Sequence record: PZ445534.1
From: a phage
Direction: 5' to 3' (one strand)
DNA length: 64,000 nucleotides
A program made the position numbers and the translations under genes. Shown here one piece after another: positions 16,725 to 41,190 of this stretch. The notes below the pieces were generated by a model. It saw only the letters and a list, made by a program, of their open reading frames with translations, searched no databases and had not been told where the DNA came from. The first letter of the stretch is position 1. The number at the start of each line of letters is the position of its first letter.

Positions 16725-17771
16725 ATGGAGAAGTACACATTAACAAAACTTCCCGATTCAGTTACACATGTTTTTATTGACTCTGACAGTATTGCCTATA
16801 AAGGTGCTTGTGTAGTTGAGAAAGCAAAGTATAAATATGTCAATAAACTCACAGCAGAAGAATCTGAACCATTTGATAATGCGAAAGATGCTGCAAGATG
16901 GTTAGCAGACCAGAGAATCCTTGTGGAAGAACTTGGCCTGACATTTGATGAAGATGAATGGGAAAGACAGACTTGGAAAGAAGCTAAGAGTGAAAAAGAA
17001 GCTATCATGGCTACTCAACAGGTTCTTCAGGAATGGCTTAAGGTTGTTGGTAAAGAGAGAATTTGGGTAGGTTATCTAACAGAGAAAGGTGTGCATAAGC
17101 ATAAAGACATTAAAGGTCTTGAGCACCAATATCAAGGTAACCGTAAAGATGCTGTCACACCAACACACTTAGTTGCTTGTCGTGAGTATCTTCTGTCAAG
17201 ACCAGAGTTCAAACTAATTCTTGATGGATTTGAAGCCGATTCTATCGTTATTGCTAAAGCTGAAAAGATGGGTAAAAAGGCTGCCTTGATGAGTATTGAT
17301 AAAGACCTTCGTCAAGCTGAAGGGACTTACTGCATTGATATGACCTATGAAAAGTCACCTTTGATTTTCATTGCTGACAACAACGTAGGTGAAATTTGGG
17401 ATTGCCCAATAAAATCGACACCAAAAGCTAAGAAGACAGTTGGGGTAGGTTTTAAATTTCTTTGTTACCAAGCTGTGGCTGGTGATAATGCTGATAATTA
17501 TTTTGGTTTAAAGGGCGTTGGTAAGGCTACTGTAATGAAAGCACTTGAAGGTAAAACCACCTACAAAGAGTGTCTTGATGCAATTTATGAGCTTTATGCT
17601 AAGAAAGAGTCATACACTTATGTCTCGTGGGATGGTCAAACAATTACCAGAACACCTTTAGAGTTAATGCAGCAACACTTTTTCTTAGCTTATCAGGAAA
17701 GAAACAAGAAAGACGATTTTACTTTTGATAAGTATGGGTGGACACCAAATGTTAACTCAACAAACTCTTAA
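16725..17771 (+). CDS. 5'-3' exonuclease / flap endonuclease (FEN family, T7 gp6-like)
   Basis: Acidic cluster FIDSDSIAY near N-terminus, AGDNADNYFG and H3TH-like LKGVGKATVMKAL. Confidence 0.65.
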   Translation: MEKYTLTKLPDSVTHVFIDSDSIAYKGACVVEKAKYKYVNKLTAEESEPFDNAKDAARWLADQRILVEELGLTFDEDEWERQTWKEAKSEKEAIMATQQVLQEWLKVVGKERIWVGYLTEKGVHKHKDIKGLEHQYQGNRKDAVTPTHLVACREYLLSRPEFKLILDGFEADSIVIAKAEKMGKKAALMSIDKDLRQAEGTYCIDMTYEKSPLIFIADNNVGEIWDCPIKSTPKAKKTVGVGFKFLCYQAVAGDNADNYFGLKGVGKATVMKALEGKTTYKECLDAIYELYAKKESYTYVSWDGQTITRTPLELMQQHFFLAYQERNKKDDFTFDKYGWTPNVNSTNS

Positions 17772-18240
17772 AGAGTACCTACATTATGACCCCGAAACAG
17801 GGGTCTTTACTTGGATTAAGAAATCTGCTAGACACACAAAAATTGGCTCTGTTGCAGGTACAAACTTAAGAGGGTATACCAGAATTTATTTGTTTGGTAA
17901 GGGCTATTATGCACATACCCTAGCCGTTCTGTATATGGATGGATACCTACCTGAGTGTGTTGACCATAAAAATCATGTAACACTAGACAATCGCTGGGTA
18001 AATCTTAGGGCATGTACGTTATCAGAGAACCAATGTAATAGGTTGCTCAATAAGAACAATAAATCAGGTGTTAAAGGTGTGTACTACAAAAAACAGTATG
18101 GTAAGTGGTCTACACAGATAACTTTTAAGAAGAGGGTTTACTTCTTCGGCAACTATGACACTATTGATGAAGCAGCAGAGGTTGTAAATAGGGAACGTCA
18201 ACGTTTACACAAAGAGTTTGCTAATAAAGGTGATGAATGA
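17725..18240 (+). CDS. HNH homing endonuclease with AP2-like domain (paralog of 7353-7886)
   Basis: LHYDPETGVFTW N-terminus, VDHKNHVTLDNRWVNLR HNH core, SGVKGVYY...GKWSTQI AP2-like. Confidence 0.7.
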   Translation: MISMGGHQMLTQQTLKEYLHYDPETGVFTWIKKSARHTKIGSVAGTNLRGYTRIYLFGKGYYAHTLAVLYMDGYLPECVDHKNHVTLDNRWVNLRACTLSENQCNRLLNKNNKSGVKGVYYKKQYGKWSTQITFKKRVYFFGNYDTIDEAAEVVNRERQRLHKEFANKGDE

Positions 18241-18737
18241 GAAAAATAAAAGGTTTTGGCAATTGCCCTGAATATGGACATTGGGTTTCACTATGTGGTG
18301 AAGTTGACCCAGCAAAGCACTTTGGTTTTGTCTACCTAGTGTACTGCAAAAAGACTGGACAGTACTATTTGGGTAAAAAACAGCTTAACAGTGTGACCAA
18401 AAGAAAAGTTGCTGGGAAGACTCGGAAGAAGATAGTCACTAAGGAAAGTGATTGGATGACTTATGAGACTTCTTCTGAGTATATTAAAAAAGATATTGAA
18501 AGCTTTGGAAAAGAATTTTTTGACTTTTACATTATTCAGACCTACTACACAAAAGGTGGCCTAGTCTATGGTGAAGCAAACCTTCAACATAAATTCGATG
18601 TAATGACAAAAAGGATTGACTCGAAGCTCAGACTCTTCTACAATGCCAATATTGCAGCAATTAAGTTTATTACTAAAGAAACTTATGAAGATGCTGAAAA
18701 AAGAATCCATAAGGTAATGAAAGCAAACTGTGCTTGA
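18237..18737 (+). CDS. putative GIY-YIG homing endonuclease
   Basis: GFVYLVYCKKTGQYYLGKK matches GIY-(10 aa)-YIG spacing. Confidence 0.5.
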   Translation: MRKIKGFGNCPEYGHWVSLCGEVDPAKHFGFVYLVYCKKTGQYYLGKKQLNSVTKRKVAGKTRKKIVTKESDWMTYETSSEYIKKDIESFGKEFFDFYIIQTYYTKGGLVYGEANLQHKFDVMTKRIDSKLRLFYNANIAAIKFITKETYEDAEKRIHKVMKANCA

Positions 18738-29363: not shown

Positions 29364-29376
29364 ACAGATACTATAA

Positions 29377-29405
29377 GGGAACTGTAAAGGTTCCCTTTTT
29401 ATTTT
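29377..29405 (+). terminator. rho-independent terminator
   Basis: GGGAAC/GTTCCC stem plus TTTTTATTTT. Confidence 0.65.
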
Positions 29406-29527
29406 GGAGATGATATGTATCTGTCAAACCTAAAACGTTCTGCTGCAATGTCAGTGTTAAGACTTAGCTTTGAGGAACGTCAAGAGTTCATTGACTCCAC
29501 CAATACGACCCCTCAAACTCCAATCAC

Positions 29528-29800
29528 ATGATTCTCTGGAATCGTGAAAGTACTCGTGAAAGAGTACTATTCCGTTATTACCCACACTACACTATAGATA
29601 ACCTGTATGAATGTTTTGTTGTGAAGAACACCATTGCAGTGCTCAATAAGCTTTGTAGATACACAGGTAGTCAATCCTTCACATTAGGCCACCACAAACC
29701 TGTTACAAAAGGTGGTGAACATCACTGTGCAAACTGGTTTATTCAGACTAAAGCTGATAACCAGAAGCAAGGAGATAACCTTTTAAGTGCCCTAAGATGA
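29528..29800 (+). CDS. putative small HNH endonuclease
   Basis: LGHHKPVTKGGEHHCANW...QTKADNQKQ resembles HNH His/Asn core. Confidence 0.35.
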   Translation: MILWNRESTRERVLFRYYPHYTIDNLYECFVVKNTIAVLNKLCRYTGSQSFTLGHHKPVTKGGEHHCANWFIQTKADNQKQGDNLLSALR

Positions 29801-29920
29801 CCTATGAAGAGCAAGAGAGATATATCAAAAATAATATGCCAGATGTGCTTGACAACAACTATACAGATTTGGCAATATCTCTCCTGTTGAAGTTCGAGAC
29901 AGTTTATAGGGCAACTTATA

Positions 29921-30199
29921 ATGGCTAAAGAAAAGTGGGAGATTTTACCATTAGTCAGTGAAGGAGGTAATGGTTGTGAAATGTACATGATACGTGGTCA
30001 TGTTCCAGAGCCAATTGCACTTGAGATGGTAAACAACTTTACAGATGGTTCTTACAAAGACTTAGGCGAACCAACTGTCAAGCAACAATGGGTTAAACCT
30101 GTACCAGACAGCACAGGTAACTGTAGTGTACTTTATCACGTTGTAGACCCTGCAAAATGCAAATCTGCAATGGCAGTAACAAACGTAACTTTTGATTGA
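29921..30199 (+). CDS. hypothetical protein
   Basis: 92-aa ORF. Confidence 0.3.
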   Translation: MAKEKWEILPLVSEGGNGCEMYMIRGHVPEPIALEMVNNFTDGSYKDLGEPTVKQQWVKPVPDSTGNCSVLYHVVDPAKCKSAMAVTNVTFD

Positions 30200-31092
30200 G
30201 AGAGAAAACTATGAAAACTGTTATTGAAGCCGTCATCACCGCTCAAGAGAAATTCTTCCACACAGAAAAATTTAATATCATTCAATTCCCATCTGGAGAA
30301 ATTGGTGGAAACTTCTCTGAAGATTTTGTTAAGTTTACTGAGCGTAATGCCGGTAAGATTGATAATGTTATAATTACTGTACAGGGATATGACAAAGATA
30401 CACTGTTTGCATTAGCTTTGGCTAAGGATGCCGTTGACAGTCTTGTTCCCCAGAAATCAGCGATGAAAACCGTTGTTTTCGGGTTCTTACCAAATGCTCG
30501 ATATGACCGCCACATGTTCAAAGGTGATGCAGCAGCACTGAAAGTCTTTGCCAACCTAGTTAATGCAATGGGTTTTGATGCAGTATGTGCTCTTGACCCT
30601 CATAGTAATGTTGCAGAAAACTTATTTAAGTGCTTTCAAAGCATGAAGCAAAAAGATGTGGCAGTACACTTTGCAAGTGACCCACGCATTGATTTCTTGG
30701 TAGCCCCAGATGCAGGTGCAGCTAAGAAGACTGAAGATACCGCTAAAGAGGTGGATAAACCGTATATCACAATGTCTAAGGTGCGCAATCTTAAGACTGG
30801 AGAAATCACTGGTATGCGAATCCTAGACGATGTTGATTTGACCGATAAAACTGTCATGATTCTTGATGATATCTGTGATGGTGGTCGAACCTTCGTAGAG
30901 GCAGCTAAACACCTACGTGAAGCAGGTGCAAAACGTGTGGAACTCTATGTAACTCATGGTATTTTCTCTAAAGGTGTTGAAAACTTACTTGACAACGGTA
31001 TTGACCATATCTACACTACAAACACCTTAGGTGAAGCTAAAGACCGTGGCTTAACACATTACGCCCAAGTTACTGTAGCAACCATTGATTGA
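30196..31092 (+). CDS. ribose-phosphate pyrophosphokinase (Prs)-family protein; candidate ADP-ribose pyrophosphate synthetase (Adps-like)
   Basis: PRTase-type motif VMILDDICDGGRT and NARYDR (cf. Prs GYARQDR); adjacent to NAMPT-like gene. Confidence 0.7.
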   Translation: MREKTMKTVIEAVITAQEKFFHTEKFNIIQFPSGEIGGNFSEDFVKFTERNAGKIDNVIITVQGYDKDTLFALALAKDAVDSLVPQKSAMKTVVFGFLPNARYDRHMFKGDAAALKVFANLVNAMGFDAVCALDPHSNVAENLFKCFQSMKQKDVAVHFASDPRIDFLVAPDAGAAKKTEDTAKEVDKPYITMSKVRNLKTGEITGMRILDDVDLTDKTVMILDDICDGGRTFVEAAKHLREAGAKRVELYVTHGIFSKGVENLLDNGIDHIYTTNTLGEAKDRGLTHYAQVTVATID

Positions 31093-31141
31093 AACTTTAT
31101 ATGGGCTTGAAAGCCCCACTTTGAGAGAGAGAGATTAAAAG

Positions 31142-32923
31142 ATGACTAAATCACTTTACGCAGTACCAGCAGGTCTTAATGCAGATGCTTACAAGGCATC
31201 ACATATATATCAGTATCCAGATGCTACGCAATATCTTATGTTGAACCTGACACCACGTAGTGATAAATGGTTTAACAGCCCTTTGGCAATTGACGGTGTA
31301 GTGGCTTTTGGTATTCAACGTTTCGTTAAAGATTACTTGATAGACCACTGGAACGCCACTTTCTTTGAACGTGATAAAAAAGAAGCCATTGATGAAATCT
31401 TAGAAGTCATGAATGGTGTTCTGGGTAAAGATGCTATCGGTCGAGAGCACTGGGAAGCACTTCACGACTTAGGTTATCTACCAGTTGAAGTATACGCTGT
31501 AGAAGAAGGTACAGTTGTCCCTATGCGCGTCCCAATGATTGTCTTCCAGAACACTGTTTCAGGCTTCCATTGGGTAGCGGGGTATCTGGAAGATGCTTTC
31601 TCTGCTGAGATTTGGAAGGCTTGTACCATTGCAACTATTGCATTGCACTACAAACGTATCTGTAAGAAGTGGGCTGACCTTACTTGTGACAACGACTTGC
31701 ATTTGCCTTATCAGTGCCATGACTTTGCTATGCGTGGTATGTCCGGCTTTACTGATGACGCATTTAACGCTGTAGGCCACTTAACCAGCTTTAAAGGAAC
31801 TGATAGCTTCCCTGCTGTGTATACGGCTAAACGAATCTATGGACAGTCCTACCCAATCTCTGATATTGGTAGCTCTGTACCAGCCACTGAGCACTCTGTA
31901 ATGTGTGCAAACATTGCTTGGGAAGGTGGTAATGAGTTGATTGAAGAAGAAAGACGCTTTAAAGGTGAGTTACAAACCTTCCGTCGTTTCTTAACAGAAA
32001 CTTACCCAACTGGTATTGCAAGTGTTGTTTCAGACACTTATAACTTCTGGAGAACTGTGTCAGAAATTTTACCAGCACTTCGTAAAGAAATTATGGAACG
32101 TGATGGCAAACTGGTAATTCGTCCTGACTCTGGAGACCCTGTACATATTGTCACAGGTTATAAAGCAATCCACTTAGAATGTGCTAAAAAGGCTTATTAC
32201 GAGCACCTAAGCAAGCTGGAAGCCAGTGACACAATGTTGAATGCTGTTCTGAACATGAAGCTTGAAAATATCAACTATGGTATTGCTGGATGGCTACTGT
32301 CAGAAGGCTACGAAATGGTTGTTGACAGAGAAGACTTTGAAGTTGCTGATACAGTGATGTTGAAAAATGCTTATATGGTTGGTTCTGCAAACGTTGTAAC
32401 ACGTCCTGTAGCTGAGATTGATGGAGCTATTAAGACACTGTACAACATCTTCGGAGGGACTATTAACTCTAAAGGGTTTAAGGTACTGGATGAGCACATC
32501 GGCCTTATCTATGGTGACTCTATCACGCTGGAACGTGCAAACGAAATCCTGAAGCGTCTGTATGAAATGGGTTTTGCAAGCTCTAACGTAGTGTTTGGTG
32601 TAGGCTCTTACACTTACCAGTACATGACTCGTGACACCTTTGCATTTGCTGTCAAAGCAACTCTTGCAAGCATTGGTGGTAAAGAGATTATGCTTGCAAA
32701 AGACCCTAAAACAGATAGTGGTGTTAAGAAATCTGCCTTTGGTGGTGTAGCACCTATGTGGGATGGTGATAAGCTGAAAGCTGTAGATGGCTATGGATTC
32801 CAGAGTTTTGCAGATGTACTTGACCACCAAGCTTGTGCTTTACGTTTAGTCTTTAGCGACTCTGAGCAGTTCGGTTATACAACTCTTGGAGATATTCGAA
32901 ATAATATTGACAAGCAGCTTTAA
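31142..32923 (+). CDS. nicotinamide phosphoribosyltransferase-family protein (NAMPT/NadV-like; candidate Namat)
   Basis: 593-aa ORF with NadV-like N-terminus ...NADAYKASHIYQYP... Confidence 0.75.
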   Translation: MTKSLYAVPAGLNADAYKASHIYQYPDATQYLMLNLTPRSDKWFNSPLAIDGVVAFGIQRFVKDYLIDHWNATFFERDKKEAIDEILEVMNGVLGKDAIGREHWEALHDLGYLPVEVYAVEEGTVVPMRVPMIVFQNTVSGFHWVAGYLEDAFSAEIWKACTIATIALHYKRICKKWADLTCDNDLHLPYQCHDFAMRGMSGFTDDAFNAVGHLTSFKGTDSFPAVYTAKRIYGQSYPISDIGSSVPATEHSVMCANIAWEGGNELIEEERRFKGELQTFRRFLTETYPTGIASVVSDTYNFWRTVSEILPALRKEIMERDGKLVIRPDSGDPVHIVTGYKAIHLECAKKAYYEHLSKLEASDTMLNAVLNMKLENINYGIAGWLLSEGYEMVVDREDFEVADTVMLKNAYMVGSANVVTRPVAEIDGAIKTLYNIFGGTINSKGFKVLDEHIGLIYGDSITLERANEILKRLYEMGFASSNVVFGVGSYTYQYMTRDTFAFAVKATLASIGGKEIMLAKDPKTDSGVKKSAFGGVAPMWDGDKLKAVDGYGFQSFADVLDHQACALRLVFSDSEQFGYTTLGDIRNNIDKQL

Positions 32924-32937
32924 AAGTATATGATAAG

Positions 32938-32959
32938 AGGCTCCTACGGGAGCCTTTTT
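32938..32959 (+). terminator. rho-independent terminator
   Basis: GGCTCC-TAC-GGGAGCC plus TTTTT. Confidence 0.65.
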
Positions 32960-32976
32960 AATTTCTGGAGAAGACT

Positions 32977-40404: not shown

Positions 40405-41190
40405 ATGGGTATTGTAAAAATCATCAATGGCGATATCTTTGCCGCATTTGATAAAGGTAAGTTTGACATTATTGGTCACGGTTGCAACTGTATGAATTTA
40501 ATGGGTGCAGGTATCGCTGACAAGATTTCTAAACTTTACCCAAAAGCATATGAGACAGATACAGAAGTCTATCTATATGCAGGTGGCATAGGTCACAAAC
40601 CCTGTGAAAATTTACTGGGTAATTTCTCTGTAGCACGTTTAAAACAAGGTCGTATAGCTAACCTTTACACTCAGCTTAAGACTGGTAAAGATGCCCGATA
40701 CAGTGCTTTAGAGTCATCTTTGAAGCAACTTAACAGATACTGTGAAGTTAATCAGTTGAAGAAAGTTGGTTTACCTATGATTGGTGCAGGTATCGGTGGA
40801 CTTGACCCTCAAGCCGTCACAGTTATCATCAATCAGGTGATGAAGAGCGTAGATGTTTATCTATATGTCTATGAAGGAGAGATGTACCATAAGTTACTCT
40901 CAGGTTGGAAGAACTACTGTGAACCAGAATACTTTGCAGGTGTAGCAGTGTTCACAGATAACGCAGTTACCCTCTTCAGACGAAGAAAAGGTAAGATACA
41001 TCAAAGTAACCCTCCGGTTGAAAAGATGTCTCTAAGTAACGCTCTAGTTACCCACCTGTCAAAGAGCAATCACAGAATTGCTGTAACATTTGGTAGTGAT
41101 GCAGAAGCTTATATCTATGCAAGAACTGATGAGGATATTGAGGCAATCTTCTCTTCACCAGAAGTTACCTTCTTAGACGCAAAGAACTAA
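40405..41190 (+). CDS. macrodomain protein (TARG1/OARD1-like ADP-ribose hydrolase fold) with C-terminal extension
   Basis: INGDIFAA...IIGHGCNCMNLMGAGIA and GLPMIGAGIGGLD match TARG1 motifs as recalled (GDLFAC...HCISEDCRMGAGIA and MPRIGCGLDRL). Confidence 0.6.
   Translation: MGIVKIINGDIFAAFDKGKFDIIGHGCNCMNLMGAGIADKISKLYPKAYETDTEVYLYAGGIGHKPCENLLGNFSVARLKQGRIANLYTQLKTGKDARYSALESSLKQLNRYCEVNQLKKVGLPMIGAGIGGLDPQAVTVIINQVMKSVDVYLYVYEGEMYHKLLSGWKNYCEPEYFAGVAVFTDNAVTLFRRRKGKIHQSNPPVEKMSLSNALVTHLSKSNHRIAVTFGSDAEAYIYARTDEDIEAIFSSPEVTFLDAKN

What the first reader, a model, noticed from the sequence alone, without database searches (positions are those of the whole stretch)
30196..32923. Adjacent Prs-like and NAMPT-like genes resembling the NARP1 NAD+ reconstitution pathway
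A divergent ribose-phosphate pyrophosphokinase homolog (PRTase motif VMILDDICDGGRT) sits directly upstream of a nicotinamide phosphoribosyltransferase homolog, with a terminator right after the pair. This two-gene arrangement matches the phage NARP1 system described in 2024, in which a Prs homolog phosphorylates ADP-ribose and a NAMPT homolog condenses the product with nicotinamide to rebuild NAD+, countering NAD+-depleting defence systems. It could instead be a conventional NadV-type salvage route using genuine PRPP synthesis.
Basis: partly seen in the sequence, partly recalled or inferred. Interest (0 to 1): 0.8.

Follow-up and report, generated by a model that had tools for sequence, protein, structure and literature searches.

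The report
Known phage NAD+ rebuilding operon (NARP1)

Summary
A Prs-like gene (most likely start ATG 30211, stop 31092, 293 aa) sits 49 nt upstream of a NAMPT-like gene (31142-32923, 593 aa). A strong terminator hairpin follows 12 nt after the stop.

The window is a Felixounavirus (Felix O1-like) phage. The two proteins are 290/293 and 581/593 identical to bas63_0079 and bas63_0080 of Escherichia phage JohannRWettstein (Bas63). That is the operon whose deletion and metabolomics led Osterman et al. (2024) to define NARP1: Adps pyrophosphorylates ADP-ribose to ADPR-PP, and Namat condenses ADPR-PP with nicotinamide to give NAD+. The closest relative, phage momo (292/293 and 591/593), is listed by name in that paper's Adps and Namat tables.

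The published Namat signature is present: the motif GSYTYQYMTRD and the K-W residues of the adenine-clamp loop. So are the catalytic residues of both enzymes.

No NMNAT, Macro or RyR gene is found next to the pair, so this is plain two-gene NARP1. Verdict: already known, low interest.

The only loose end is a Macro-domain protein 7.5 kb downstream (40405-41190). It belongs to the same phage family as the ADPR-1''-phosphate phosphatase Adpp of "NARP1-AP", and has not been tested.

The parts
30211..31092 (+). adps: ADP-ribose pyrophosphokinase (ADPR-PP synthetase), a Prs homologue of 293 aa. An alternative in-frame TTG start lies at 30196.
   Evidence: It is 290/293 identical to bas63_0079 and 292/293 to momo_89. 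phrog_619 matches at E 2e-99. It passes only the broad TIGR01251 subfamily model and falls far below every Prs equivalog cut-off, for example 101.5 bits against 297. Identity is 28% (66 bits) to E. coli Prs but 39% (130 bits) to the Adps of Vibrio phage Quinn. Against Bas63 there are 23 synonymous and 3 non-synonymous codon differences.
30775..30786 (+). Adps catalytic flexible-loop motif S-K-V-R (K190, R192)
   Evidence: It aligns with the DKRR loop of E. coli Prs and the HKER loop of human PRPS1. The equivalent Lys (K162 in SPbetaL1 Adps, K197 in B. subtilis Prs) is required for NARP1 activity.
30865..30891 (+). Adps ribose-phosphate (PRTase) loop DDICDGGRT
   Evidence: It aligns with DDMIDTGGT of E. 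coli Prs and DDISDGGAS of Quinn Adps. Both Adps proteins share the Thr-to-Gly change after the Asp. That this change has a role in accommodating ADPR is my inference only.
31142..32923 (+). namat: nicotinamide ADPR-transferase, a NAMPT homologue of 593 aa
   Evidence: It is 581/593 identical to bas63_0080 and 591/593 to momo_88. The best solved structures are SPbetaL1 Namat 9W5W/9W5X at 434 bits. Xanthomonas Nampt scores 180 bits and mammalian NAMPT about 145. Against Bas63 there are 57 synonymous and 12 non-synonymous codon differences.
31250..31273 (+). Namat selectivity-clamp loop (SCL), TPRSDKWF. K42 is at the position of SPbetaL1 R40, and W43 is the predicted adenine-stacking residue.
   Evidence: Taken from the alignment to 9W5X. 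The stretch is identical in Bas63. PMC12774641 states that when Lys occupies the third SCL position, the next residue does the stacking, and gives Bas63 Namat as the example.
31883..31897 (+). Namat catalytic-core motif ATEHS, containing the conserved catalytic His (H251)
   Evidence: The motif is conserved in the alignment to SPbetaL1 Namat. The catalytic His is described as conserved between Namat and Nampt. Other core residues are also conserved: D15, Y17, F195, R198, D221, R327 (SPbetaL1 R306) and D329.
32171..32419 (+). Lineage-specific insertion of about 83 aa in Namat (aa 344-426), absent from SPbetaL1 Namat and from NAMPT
   Evidence: It shows as a gap between the two aligned stretches. 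tblastn finds it in 254 phage records, essentially all Ounavirinae-type phages, and inside the NAMPT-like gene in every annotated record listed. Its function is unknown.
32603..32635 (+). Namat selectivity-clamp helix (SCH) motif GSYTYQYMTRD
   Evidence: [quoted passage not shown]
32935..32968 (+). Intrinsic terminator closing the operon: a 10-bp GC-rich hairpin plus a U-run
   Evidence: Found by the terminator scan. The fold gives -16.6 kcal/mol, z = -3.3.

Best explanation
This is the two-gene NARP1 (NAD+ reconstitution pathway 1) counter-defence operon of a Felixounavirus, orthologous to Bas63 genes 79-80.

How it works: host abortive-infection systems (SIR2-HerA/Nezha, type I Thoeris, DSR, SEFIR and others) cleave NAD+ into ADP-ribose and nicotinamide. 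Adps (30211-31092) uses ATP to put a pyrophosphate on the ribose C1'' of ADP-ribose, giving ADPR-PP. Namat (31142-32923) then replaces that pyrophosphate with nicotinamide and regenerates NAD+ directly, with no need for host NMN adenylyltransferase. The phage can then replicate despite the NADase.

Shown here: orthology, gene order, intact reading frames under purifying selection, conservation of the catalytic and specificity residues, and the terminator.

Taken from the literature on the orthologue or on homologues: the chemistry and the anti-defence phenotype.
For: 1. Protein identity to bas63_0079 is 99% and to bas63_0080 is 98%. The neighbourhood is the same: nrdD/nrdG upstream, rIIA/rIIB downstream.
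2. Osterman et al. (10.1101/2024.02.11.579819) worked on that operon. Deleting genes 79-80 in Bas63 cut plaquing about 20-fold on SIR2-HerA cells. NAD+ was restored only by wild-type phage. ADPR-PP was detected only with wild-type phage plus the defence system. The effect was independent of host pncC and nadR.
3. The SPbetaL1 homologues in vitro: Adps converts ADPR plus ATP to ADPR-PP, with no product in the control meant to test Prs activity. Namat converts ADPR-PP plus nicotinamide to NAD+, and prefers ADPR-PP over PRPP.
4. The near-identical momo proteins are listed in the paper's Adps and Namat tables as NARP1.
5. The Namat-specific SCH motif and the SCL K-W residues are present. SPbetaL1 Namat structures are by far the best PDB hits.
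6. Adps scores well below all Prs equivalog cut-offs. It is closer to the Adps of a validated NARP1-AP-type operon than to E. coli Prs.
7. Synonymous changes dominate in both genes: 23:3 and 57:12.
8. No NMNAT, Nudix, Macro or RyR domain turned up among the immediate neighbours or among the otherwise unassigned ORFs of at least 150 aa that I scanned, apart from one distal Macro protein. Nothing of the kind is annotated in Bas63.
Against: No enzymology exists for the Felixounavirus proteins themselves. The Bas63 Adps did not purify, and all in vitro work used SPbetaL1, Paenibacillus or DyoEdafos homologues.

Namat homologues keep a PRPP-to-NMN side activity in vitro, so some conventional NMN synthesis cannot be excluded.

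The Felixounavirus Namat carries an insertion of about 83 aa, not present in the crystallised enzyme, whose effect is unknown.

Expression and timing in this particular phage were not examined.
Confidence: 0.93

Rival explanations
1. Conventional salvage. The first gene is a true PRPP synthetase and the second a true NAMPT (NadV). Together they make NMN, which host NadR or PncC-linked routes convert to NAD+, simply raising NAD+ supply during infection.
For: Pfam, NCBIfam and PHROG all name the proteins as Prs and NAMPT, and all GenBank records carry those names. Namat homologues can make NMN from PRPP in vitro.
Against: Bas63 still overcame SIR2-HerA in a host lacking pncC and nadR. ADPR-PP, not excess PRPP or NMN, was the operon-dependent metabolite. 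The SPbetaL1 Adps gave no product in the control meant to test Prs activity, and with mixed substrates Namat produced only NAD+. The Adps scores fall far below the Prs equivalog cut-offs. No phage NMNAT turned up among the ORFs I scanned, and none is annotated in Bas63. The Namat adenine-clamp motif is present.
Confidence: 0.04
2. Extended pathway. The operon works together with the unlinked Macro-domain protein at 40405-41190, acting as an Adpp-like ADPR-1''-phosphate phosphatase. The phage would then also counter RES-type NAD+ phosphorylases (NARP1-AP, supplied in trans).
For: The 261-aa protein has a Macro domain (PF01661, E 1e-7). It falls in the same PHROG (phrog_335) and has the same best PDB hits as the NARP1-embedded Macro protein of Vibrio phage Quinn. 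The Quinn protein is 90% identical to the biochemically tested Gary Adpp. Identity to the NARP1-associated Macro proteins is 27-37%, which is within the spread seen among those proteins themselves. The published survey looked only two genes either side of NARP1, and it does not list Felixounaviruses.
Against: The gene lies 7.5 kb from the operon. The family is very large (about 2,850 phage records) and includes T4-like phages; the T4-like member I examined is not next to a NARP1 pair. The window protein is at least as close to that T4-like member (35-39%) as to any Adpp. The GGDW motif of the other members reads GGLDP here. There are no experimental data.
Confidence: 0.25
3. The genes are decaying remnants with no function in this particular phage.
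For: The gene immediately upstream (the bas63_0077 orthologue) carries two frameshifts in this window.
Against: Both reading frames are intact and full length. All catalytic and specificity residues are conserved. Synonymous changes outnumber non-synonymous ones 23:3 and 57:12 against Bas63.
Confidence: 0.01

Closest known systems
NARP1 of Escherichia phage JohannRWettstein (Bas63), genes bas63_0079 and bas63_0080 (Osterman et al. 2024, 10.1101/2024.02.11.579819)
   Same: Same genus (Felixounavirus), same gene order and neighbours. Adps is 290/293 identical and Namat 581/593, with identical specificity motifs. The nucleotide identity across the pair is 95.9%.
   Different: There are 3 and 12 amino-acid substitutions, none in a residue known to be functional. 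The window lacks the small gene bas63_0081 downstream, and its bas63_0077 orthologue upstream is frameshifted.
NARP1 of Bacillus phage SPbetaL1 (biochemically and structurally characterised; Namat structures 9W5W and 9W5X, PMC12774641)
   Same: The same two-gene architecture. The Namat catalytic core and the SCH motif are conserved, and these structures are the top PDB hits at 434 bits.
   Different: It is a distant homologue. The window Namat has inserts of about 83 aa and about 15 aa. It uses K42/W43 where SPbetaL1 has R40 in the clamp loop, and Y490 where SPbetaL1 has F392.
NARP1-AP of Vibrio phage Gary and Quinn (Adps-Adpp-Namat; 10.64898/2026.01.28.702374)
   Same: Adps is 39% identical and Namat 38% identical to the Quinn proteins. 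A Macro protein of the same PHROG exists in the window.
   Different: In the window the Macro gene is not in the operon: it lies 7.5 kb downstream. No Macro domain is found among the immediate neighbours.
NARP2 of Vibrio phage KVP40 (Nampt + Nmnat)
   Same: It includes a NAMPT-family enzyme and serves to restore NAD+.
   Different: NARP2 needs a phage NMNAT and uses PRPP. No NMNAT was found among the ORFs I scanned, and none is annotated in Bas63. The partner gene here is a Prs-like Adps.
Cellular Prs (E. coli b1207) and NAMPT (human, Xanthomonas)
   Same: The same folds and the same catalytic residues: the Lys/Arg flexible loop and PRTase loop in Prs, and the catalytic His, Arg and Asp in NAMPT.
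   Different: Identity to E. coli Prs is only 28%, and scores are below all Prs equivalog cut-offs. The adenine-clamp motif is absent from Nampt. The substrates differ, ADPR and ADPR-PP instead of R5P and PRPP (literature).

Membership tests
NARP1 (Adps + Namat operon) | A Prs-family gene and a NAMPT-family gene adjacent on the same strand in a phage genome | tested here: met
   ORFs 30211-31092 and 31142-32923 are on the + strand, separated by 49 nt and followed by one terminator.
NARP1 (Adps + Namat operon) | Orthology to an experimentally validated NARP1 operon | tested here: met
   Protein identity to Bas63 genes 79-80 is 99% and 98%. The near-identical momo proteins are in the authors' NARP1 tables.
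Adps (ADPR-PP synthetase clade of the Prs family) | Placement in the phage Adps clade rather than with cellular Prs | tested here: met
   I built no full tree. The evidence is as follows. The momo protein (292/293 identical) is clustered under Bas63 Adps in the authors' table. Identity is 39% (130 bits) to Quinn Adps and 28% (66 bits) to E. coli Prs. All Prs equivalog models score far below their cut-offs.
Adps (ADPR-PP synthetase clade of the Prs family) | Catalytic Lys of the flexible loop (SPbetaL1 K162, B. subtilis Prs K197) | tested here: met
   K190 in the motif SKVR aligns with the Lys of the Prs loop.
Adps (ADPR-PP synthetase clade of the Prs family) | Uses ADP-ribose, not ribose-5-phosphate, as the pyrophosphate acceptor | not testable with these tools
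   This needs an enzyme assay. It was shown in vitro only for SPbetaL1 and other homologues, and inferred for Bas63 from ADPR-PP found in infected cells.
Namat (nicotinamide ADPR-transferase clade of the NAMPT family) | [quoted passage not shown] | tested here: met
   GSYTYQYMTRD is at aa 488-498.
Namat (nicotinamide ADPR-transferase clade of the NAMPT family) | SCL loop supplying an adenine-stacking residue (Arg at the third position, or Lys/Tyr followed by the stacking residue) | tested here: met
   The loop reads S-D-K42-W43 and is identical in Bas63, which the paper gives as its example for the Lys case.
Namat (nicotinamide ADPR-transferase clade of the NAMPT family) | Conserved Nampt-like catalytic core (catalytic His; Arg equivalent to SPbetaL1 R306; Asp equivalent to D215; Phe/Tyr sandwich around nicotinamide) | tested here: met
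   H251, R327, D221, F195 and Y17 are conserved in the alignment to 9W5X.
Namat (nicotinamide ADPR-transferase clade of the NAMPT family) | Prefers ADPR-PP over PRPP and yields NAD+ directly | not testable with these tools
   This needs an enzyme assay. It was shown for the SPbetaL1 enzyme.
NARP2 (Nampt + Nmnat) | A phage-encoded NMN adenylyltransferase alongside the Nampt | tested here: not met
   No cytidylyltransferase/NMNAT or Nudix domain was found in the 8 flanking ORFs or in the 20 other, mostly unassigned, ORFs of at least 150 aa that I scanned. None is annotated in Bas63. Caveats: the window covers 64 kb of an estimated 88-kb genome, and ORFs shorter than 150 aa away from the operon were not scanned.
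NARP1-AP (NARP1 with associated Macro-domain phosphatase Adpp) | A Macro-domain gene within the NARP1 operon (within two genes either side) | tested here: not met
   The flanking ORFs have no Macro domain. The only Macro protein is at 40405-41190, 7.5 kb downstream.
RyDEP-associated NARP1 | A RyR-domain (PF02026) glycosidase gene inside the NARP1 locus | tested here: not met
   No RyR hit was found in the neighbours or in the other ORFs scanned. The system is described.

The most novel reading that the evidence does not exclude
Felixounaviruses, including the type phage Bas63, may run an unlinked form of the extended pathway NARP1-AP. In this reading the conserved 261-aa Macro-domain protein at 40405-41190 (the bas63_0095 orthologue, annotated only as 'putative phosphatase') dephosphorylates ADPR-1''-phosphate made by RES-type defence NADases and feeds the ADPR to Adps/Namat. 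The published operon-restricted survey (two genes either side) would then have undercounted NARP1-AP. A much larger phage Macro family (phrog_335, about 2,800 phage genomes) could share this anti-aRES role.
Probability: 0.2. Interest if true: 0.4.

Novelty: already known. Interest (0 to 1): 0.12.

Why it matters
NARP1 is an important counter-defence against NAD+-depleting bacterial immunity, but this locus adds nothing to it. It is one more Felixounavirus copy of the type operon; my Adps search found homologues in 1,547 phage records. Its practical value is for annotation: public records still label these genes 'ribose-phosphate pyrophosphokinase' and 'nicotinamide phosphoribosyltransferase', and they should read Adps and Namat. 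The one testable lead is whether the distal Macro-domain protein extends the pathway to ADPR-1''-phosphate.

Tried and rejected
- **NMNAT, Nudix, Macro or RyR partners.** I ran Pfam on 8 flanking ORFs and on 20 other, mostly unassigned, ORFs of at least 150 aa, and read the Bas63 annotation. The only hit was the distal Macro protein. NARP2, operonic NARP1-AP and RyDEP-NARP1 are therefore rejected.
- **Conventional Prs/NadV salvage.** Rejected on the published Bas63 genetics and metabolomics and on the Namat clamp motif.
- **Residues mutated in Adpp.** I tried to find them so I could check them in the window Macro protein. They appear only in a figure, not in the text.
- **Literature on Felixounavirus NAD genes or phage Macro proteins linked to NARP1.** Nothing turned up beyond the aRES preprint.
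- **Heavy searches not run.** I did not run the billion-protein searches, structure prediction or fold search. Identity of 98-99% to the type operon already settles the question, so the cost was not justified.
- **No maximum-likelihood tree of Prs/Adps or NAMPT/Namat.** I relied on pairwise scores, curated cut-offs, PDB ranking and the authors' own tables.
- **Small hairpin between adps and namat (31103-31116).** It is not significant (z = -1.4).
- **Promoter-like hits.** They are only mildly enriched (17 found against 10.2 +/- 2.6 expected), so I did not interpret them.
Full report
**Observation**

The region holds two same-strand ORFs, as described: 30196..31092 (298 aa from a TTG) and 31142..32923 (593 aa).

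- The first ORF matches the phosphoribosyltransferase and PRPP-synthetase domains (PF00156, E 7e-12; PF14572, E 2e-10). It also matches the broad TIGR01251 ribose-phosphate diphosphokinase model (138.9 bits, cut-off 113) and phrog_619 (E 2e-99).
- The second ORF matches NAPRTase/NAMPT_N, NF006629 (471 bits, cut-off 405) and phrog_448 (E 4e-202).
- The quoted motif VMILDDICDGGRT is present.
- Twelve nucleotides after the second stop codon there is a 10-bp GC-rich hairpin followed by UUUUUAAUUU, at -16.6 kcal/mol and z = -3.3 against shuffles.
- A similar terminator-like hairpin lies upstream at 29375-29397.

One correction is needed. The orthologues in related phages are annotated from the ATG that corresponds to 30211 (293 aa). 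That ATG is preceded by a GAGAGAG run, so it is the more likely start.

**What the window is**

The 2.7-kb stretch has megablast matches in 259 phage records, almost all Felixounavirus or other Ounavirinae phages of Escherichia, Salmonella, Shigella and Citrobacter.

- The best match is Escherichia phage momo at 99.2% nucleotide identity.
- Escherichia phage JohannRWettstein (BASEL phage Bas63) matches at 95.9%.
- Over 24 kb no record exceeds about 95.7% identity, so this is a new isolate of a well-sampled genus.
- Gene order is the usual one: nrdD, nrdG and small ORFs, then the pair, then rIIA and rIIB.

**Identity with the type system**

Osterman et al. ('Phages reconstitute NAD+ to counter bacterial immunity', 10.1101/2024.02.11.579819) discovered NARP1 in exactly this operon, genes 79-80 of Bas63. 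Their results:

- Deleting the two genes reduced plaquing about 20-fold on SIR2-HerA cells and abolished the restoration of NAD+.
- The effect persisted in a host lacking pncC and nadR, so it does not run through NMN.
- ADPR-pyrophosphate and its cyclic breakdown product appeared only with wild-type phage plus the defence system.
- The Bas63 protein purified poorly, so the chemistry was shown with the SPbetaL1 homologues. Adps plus ATP plus ADPR gives ADPR-PP, with no product in the control meant to test Prs activity. Namat plus ADPR-PP plus nicotinamide gives NAD+, and ADPR-PP is preferred over PRPP.

How the window proteins compare:

| Comparison | Adps | Namat |
|---|---|---|
| Bas63 (bas63_0079, bas63_0080) | 290/293 | 581/593 |
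| momo | 292/293 | 591/593 |

The momo proteins appear by accession in the paper's supplementary Adps and Namat tables. The Adps is clustered under the Bas63 representative and the Namat is flagged 'Adps-associated'. Against Bas63, codon differences are mostly synonymous, 23:3 in adps and 57:12 in namat, so both genes are under purifying selection.

**Family-defining features checked directly**

The structural study of SPbetaL1 Namat (PMC12774641; PDB 9W5W and 9W5X) defines a Namat-only 'selectivity clamp'. It has two parts:

- a variable loop that supplies a further stacking residue.

The window protein has both. GSYTYQYMTRD is at aa 488-498. The loop reads S-D-K42-W43 and is identical to Bas63 Namat, which that paper gives as its example of the 'Lys then stacking residue' case. 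The Nampt-like core is conserved: D15, Y17, F195, R198, D221, H251, R327 and D329.

Against all PDB sequences, the SPbetaL1 Namat structures are the top hits at 434 bits. Xanthomonas Nampt scores 180 bits and mammalian NAMPT about 145.

For Adps:

- The flexible-loop Lys needed for activity is present as K190 in SKVR.
- The ATP and ribose-phosphate motifs are recognisable (FPSGE, ARYDR, DPHS, DDICDGGRT).
- The protein is 28% identical (66 bits) to E. coli Prs and 39% identical (130 bits) to the Adps of Vibrio phage Quinn. Quinn's Adps-Macro-Namat operon is a close relative of the tested Gary operon.
- It scores far below every NCBIfam Prs equivalog cut-off.
- The PDB copy contains no Adps structure. 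What makes Adps accept ADPR is therefore still not explained structurally. The shared DT-to-DG change in the PRTase loop is only my suggestion.

**Which NARP variant**

Three elaborations of phage NAD+ reconstitution have been published:

- NARP2 (Nampt + Nmnat);
- NARP1-AP, which has a Macro-domain ADPR-1''-phosphate phosphatase, Adpp, inside the operon and counters RES-type NAD+ phosphorylases (10.64898/2026.01.28.702374);
- NARP1 loci carrying a RyR-domain glycosidase (10.64898/2026.05.28.727677).

Pfam scans of 8 flanking ORFs and 20 other, mostly unassigned, ORFs of at least 150 aa found no NMNAT, Nudix or RyR domain, and no Macro domain next to the pair. The Bas63 annotation shows none either. 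This is therefore the plain two-gene NARP1.

**A side lead**

One ORF 7.5 kb downstream (40405-41190, 261 aa) does have a Macro domain (PF01661, E 1e-7). It is the orthologue of bas63_0095, annotated 'putative phosphatase'.

Points in favour of a link to NARP1:

- It falls in the same PHROG (phrog_335) and has the same best PDB relatives (OARD1/TARG1) as the operon-embedded Macro protein of phage Quinn.
- The Quinn protein is 90% identical to the biochemically tested Gary Adpp.
- Identity to the authors' list of NARP1-associated Macro proteins is 27-37%, within the spread of that list itself.
- That survey looked only two genes either side of NARP1 and lists no Felixounavirus.

Points against:

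- The family is very large, about 2,850 phage records, and includes T4-like phages; the T4-like member I examined is not next to a NARP1 pair.
- The window protein is at least as close to that T4-like member (35-39%) as to any Adpp.

So an Adpp-like role in trans is possible but unproven. I put it at about 0.2-0.25.

**Other things seen**

- The gene just upstream of the transcription unit's small ORF is the bas63_0077 orthologue (HNH-like, 171 aa in Bas63). In the window it carries two independent 1-nt deletions relative to both Bas63 and momo, which split it into three frame pieces.
- The window lacks bas63_0081 downstream of namat, as momo does.
- The Felixounavirus Namat carries an insertion of about 83 aa (aa 344-426) that SPbetaL1 Namat and NAMPT lack. 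tblastn finds the insertion in 254 records, essentially all Ounavirinae-type phages, and inside the NAMPT-like gene in every annotated record listed. Quinn Namat has a shorter, unrelated insert at the same place.

**Verdict**

The locus is, however, an orthologue of the very operon that defined NARP1, and near-identical copies are already catalogued as such. Novelty: already known. Interest: low. The main remaining uncertainty (confidence 0.93) is that the enzymology was done on distant homologues, not on the Felixounavirus proteins.

Noticed in passing
window 40405-41190 (+): A 261-aa protein with an N-terminal Macro domain (PF01661, E 1e-7), orthologue of bas63_0095 'putative phosphatase'. 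It shares its PHROG (phrog_335) and its best PDB hits with the NARP1-embedded Adpp (ADPR-1''-phosphate phosphatase) of Vibrio phages Quinn and Gary, but lies 7.5 kb from the operon. It is 27-37% identical to the published NARP1-associated Macro proteins and 35-39% identical to a T4-like homologue. It also has a C-terminal extension of about 100 aa with no Pfam match.
   Followed up: partly
window 29415-29928 (+): The orthologue of bas63_0077 (a 171-aa HNH-like protein, motif GHHKPVTKGGEHHCANW) is broken into three reading-frame pieces. Two separate 1-nt deletions relative to both Bas63 and momo cause this, one of them in a C-run. It is either a pseudogene or a sequencing error.
   Followed up: yes
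window 32171-32419 (+), Namat aa 344-426: An insertion of about 83 aa in Namat that is absent from the crystallised SPbetaL1 Namat and from NAMPT. tblastn finds it in 254 phage records, essentially all Ounavirinae-type phages, and inside the NAMPT-like gene in every annotated record listed. Vibrio phage Quinn Namat has a shorter, unrelated insert at the same site. The text of the Namat structure paper does not mention it. Its function is unknown.
   Followed up: partly
window 32924-32976, compared with L001 6725-7127: The window, like momo, lacks the 345-nt gene bas63_0081 that sits between namat and the bas63_0082 orthologue in Bas63.
   Followed up: yes
related phages LinBro (OR896830.1), ekra (MN850644.1), TH10 (MT446388.1): In these relatives the adps-namat stretch is interrupted by about 465 bp that carries an annotated HNH homing endonuclease. 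This window has no such insertion.
   Followed up: no
window 29921-30199 (+): A 92-aa ORF (bas63_0078 orthologue) with no Pfam match ends 11 nt before the adps ATG. It lies between the upstream terminator-like hairpin (29375-29397) and adps, so it may be co-transcribed with NARP1. Its function is unknown.
   Followed up: partly
window 17725-18240 and 18237-18737 (+): Two adjacent homing-endonuclease-type ORFs: one HNH_3 + AP2 (E 1e-11) and one SegE-like GIY-YIG (E 1e-26). They are typical of the mosaic Felixounavirus genome.
   Followed up: no
one search hit table (phage collection): Felixounavirus Adps sequences fall into two allele groups relative to the window, at about 94-100% and about 77-82% protein identity.
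   Followed up: no
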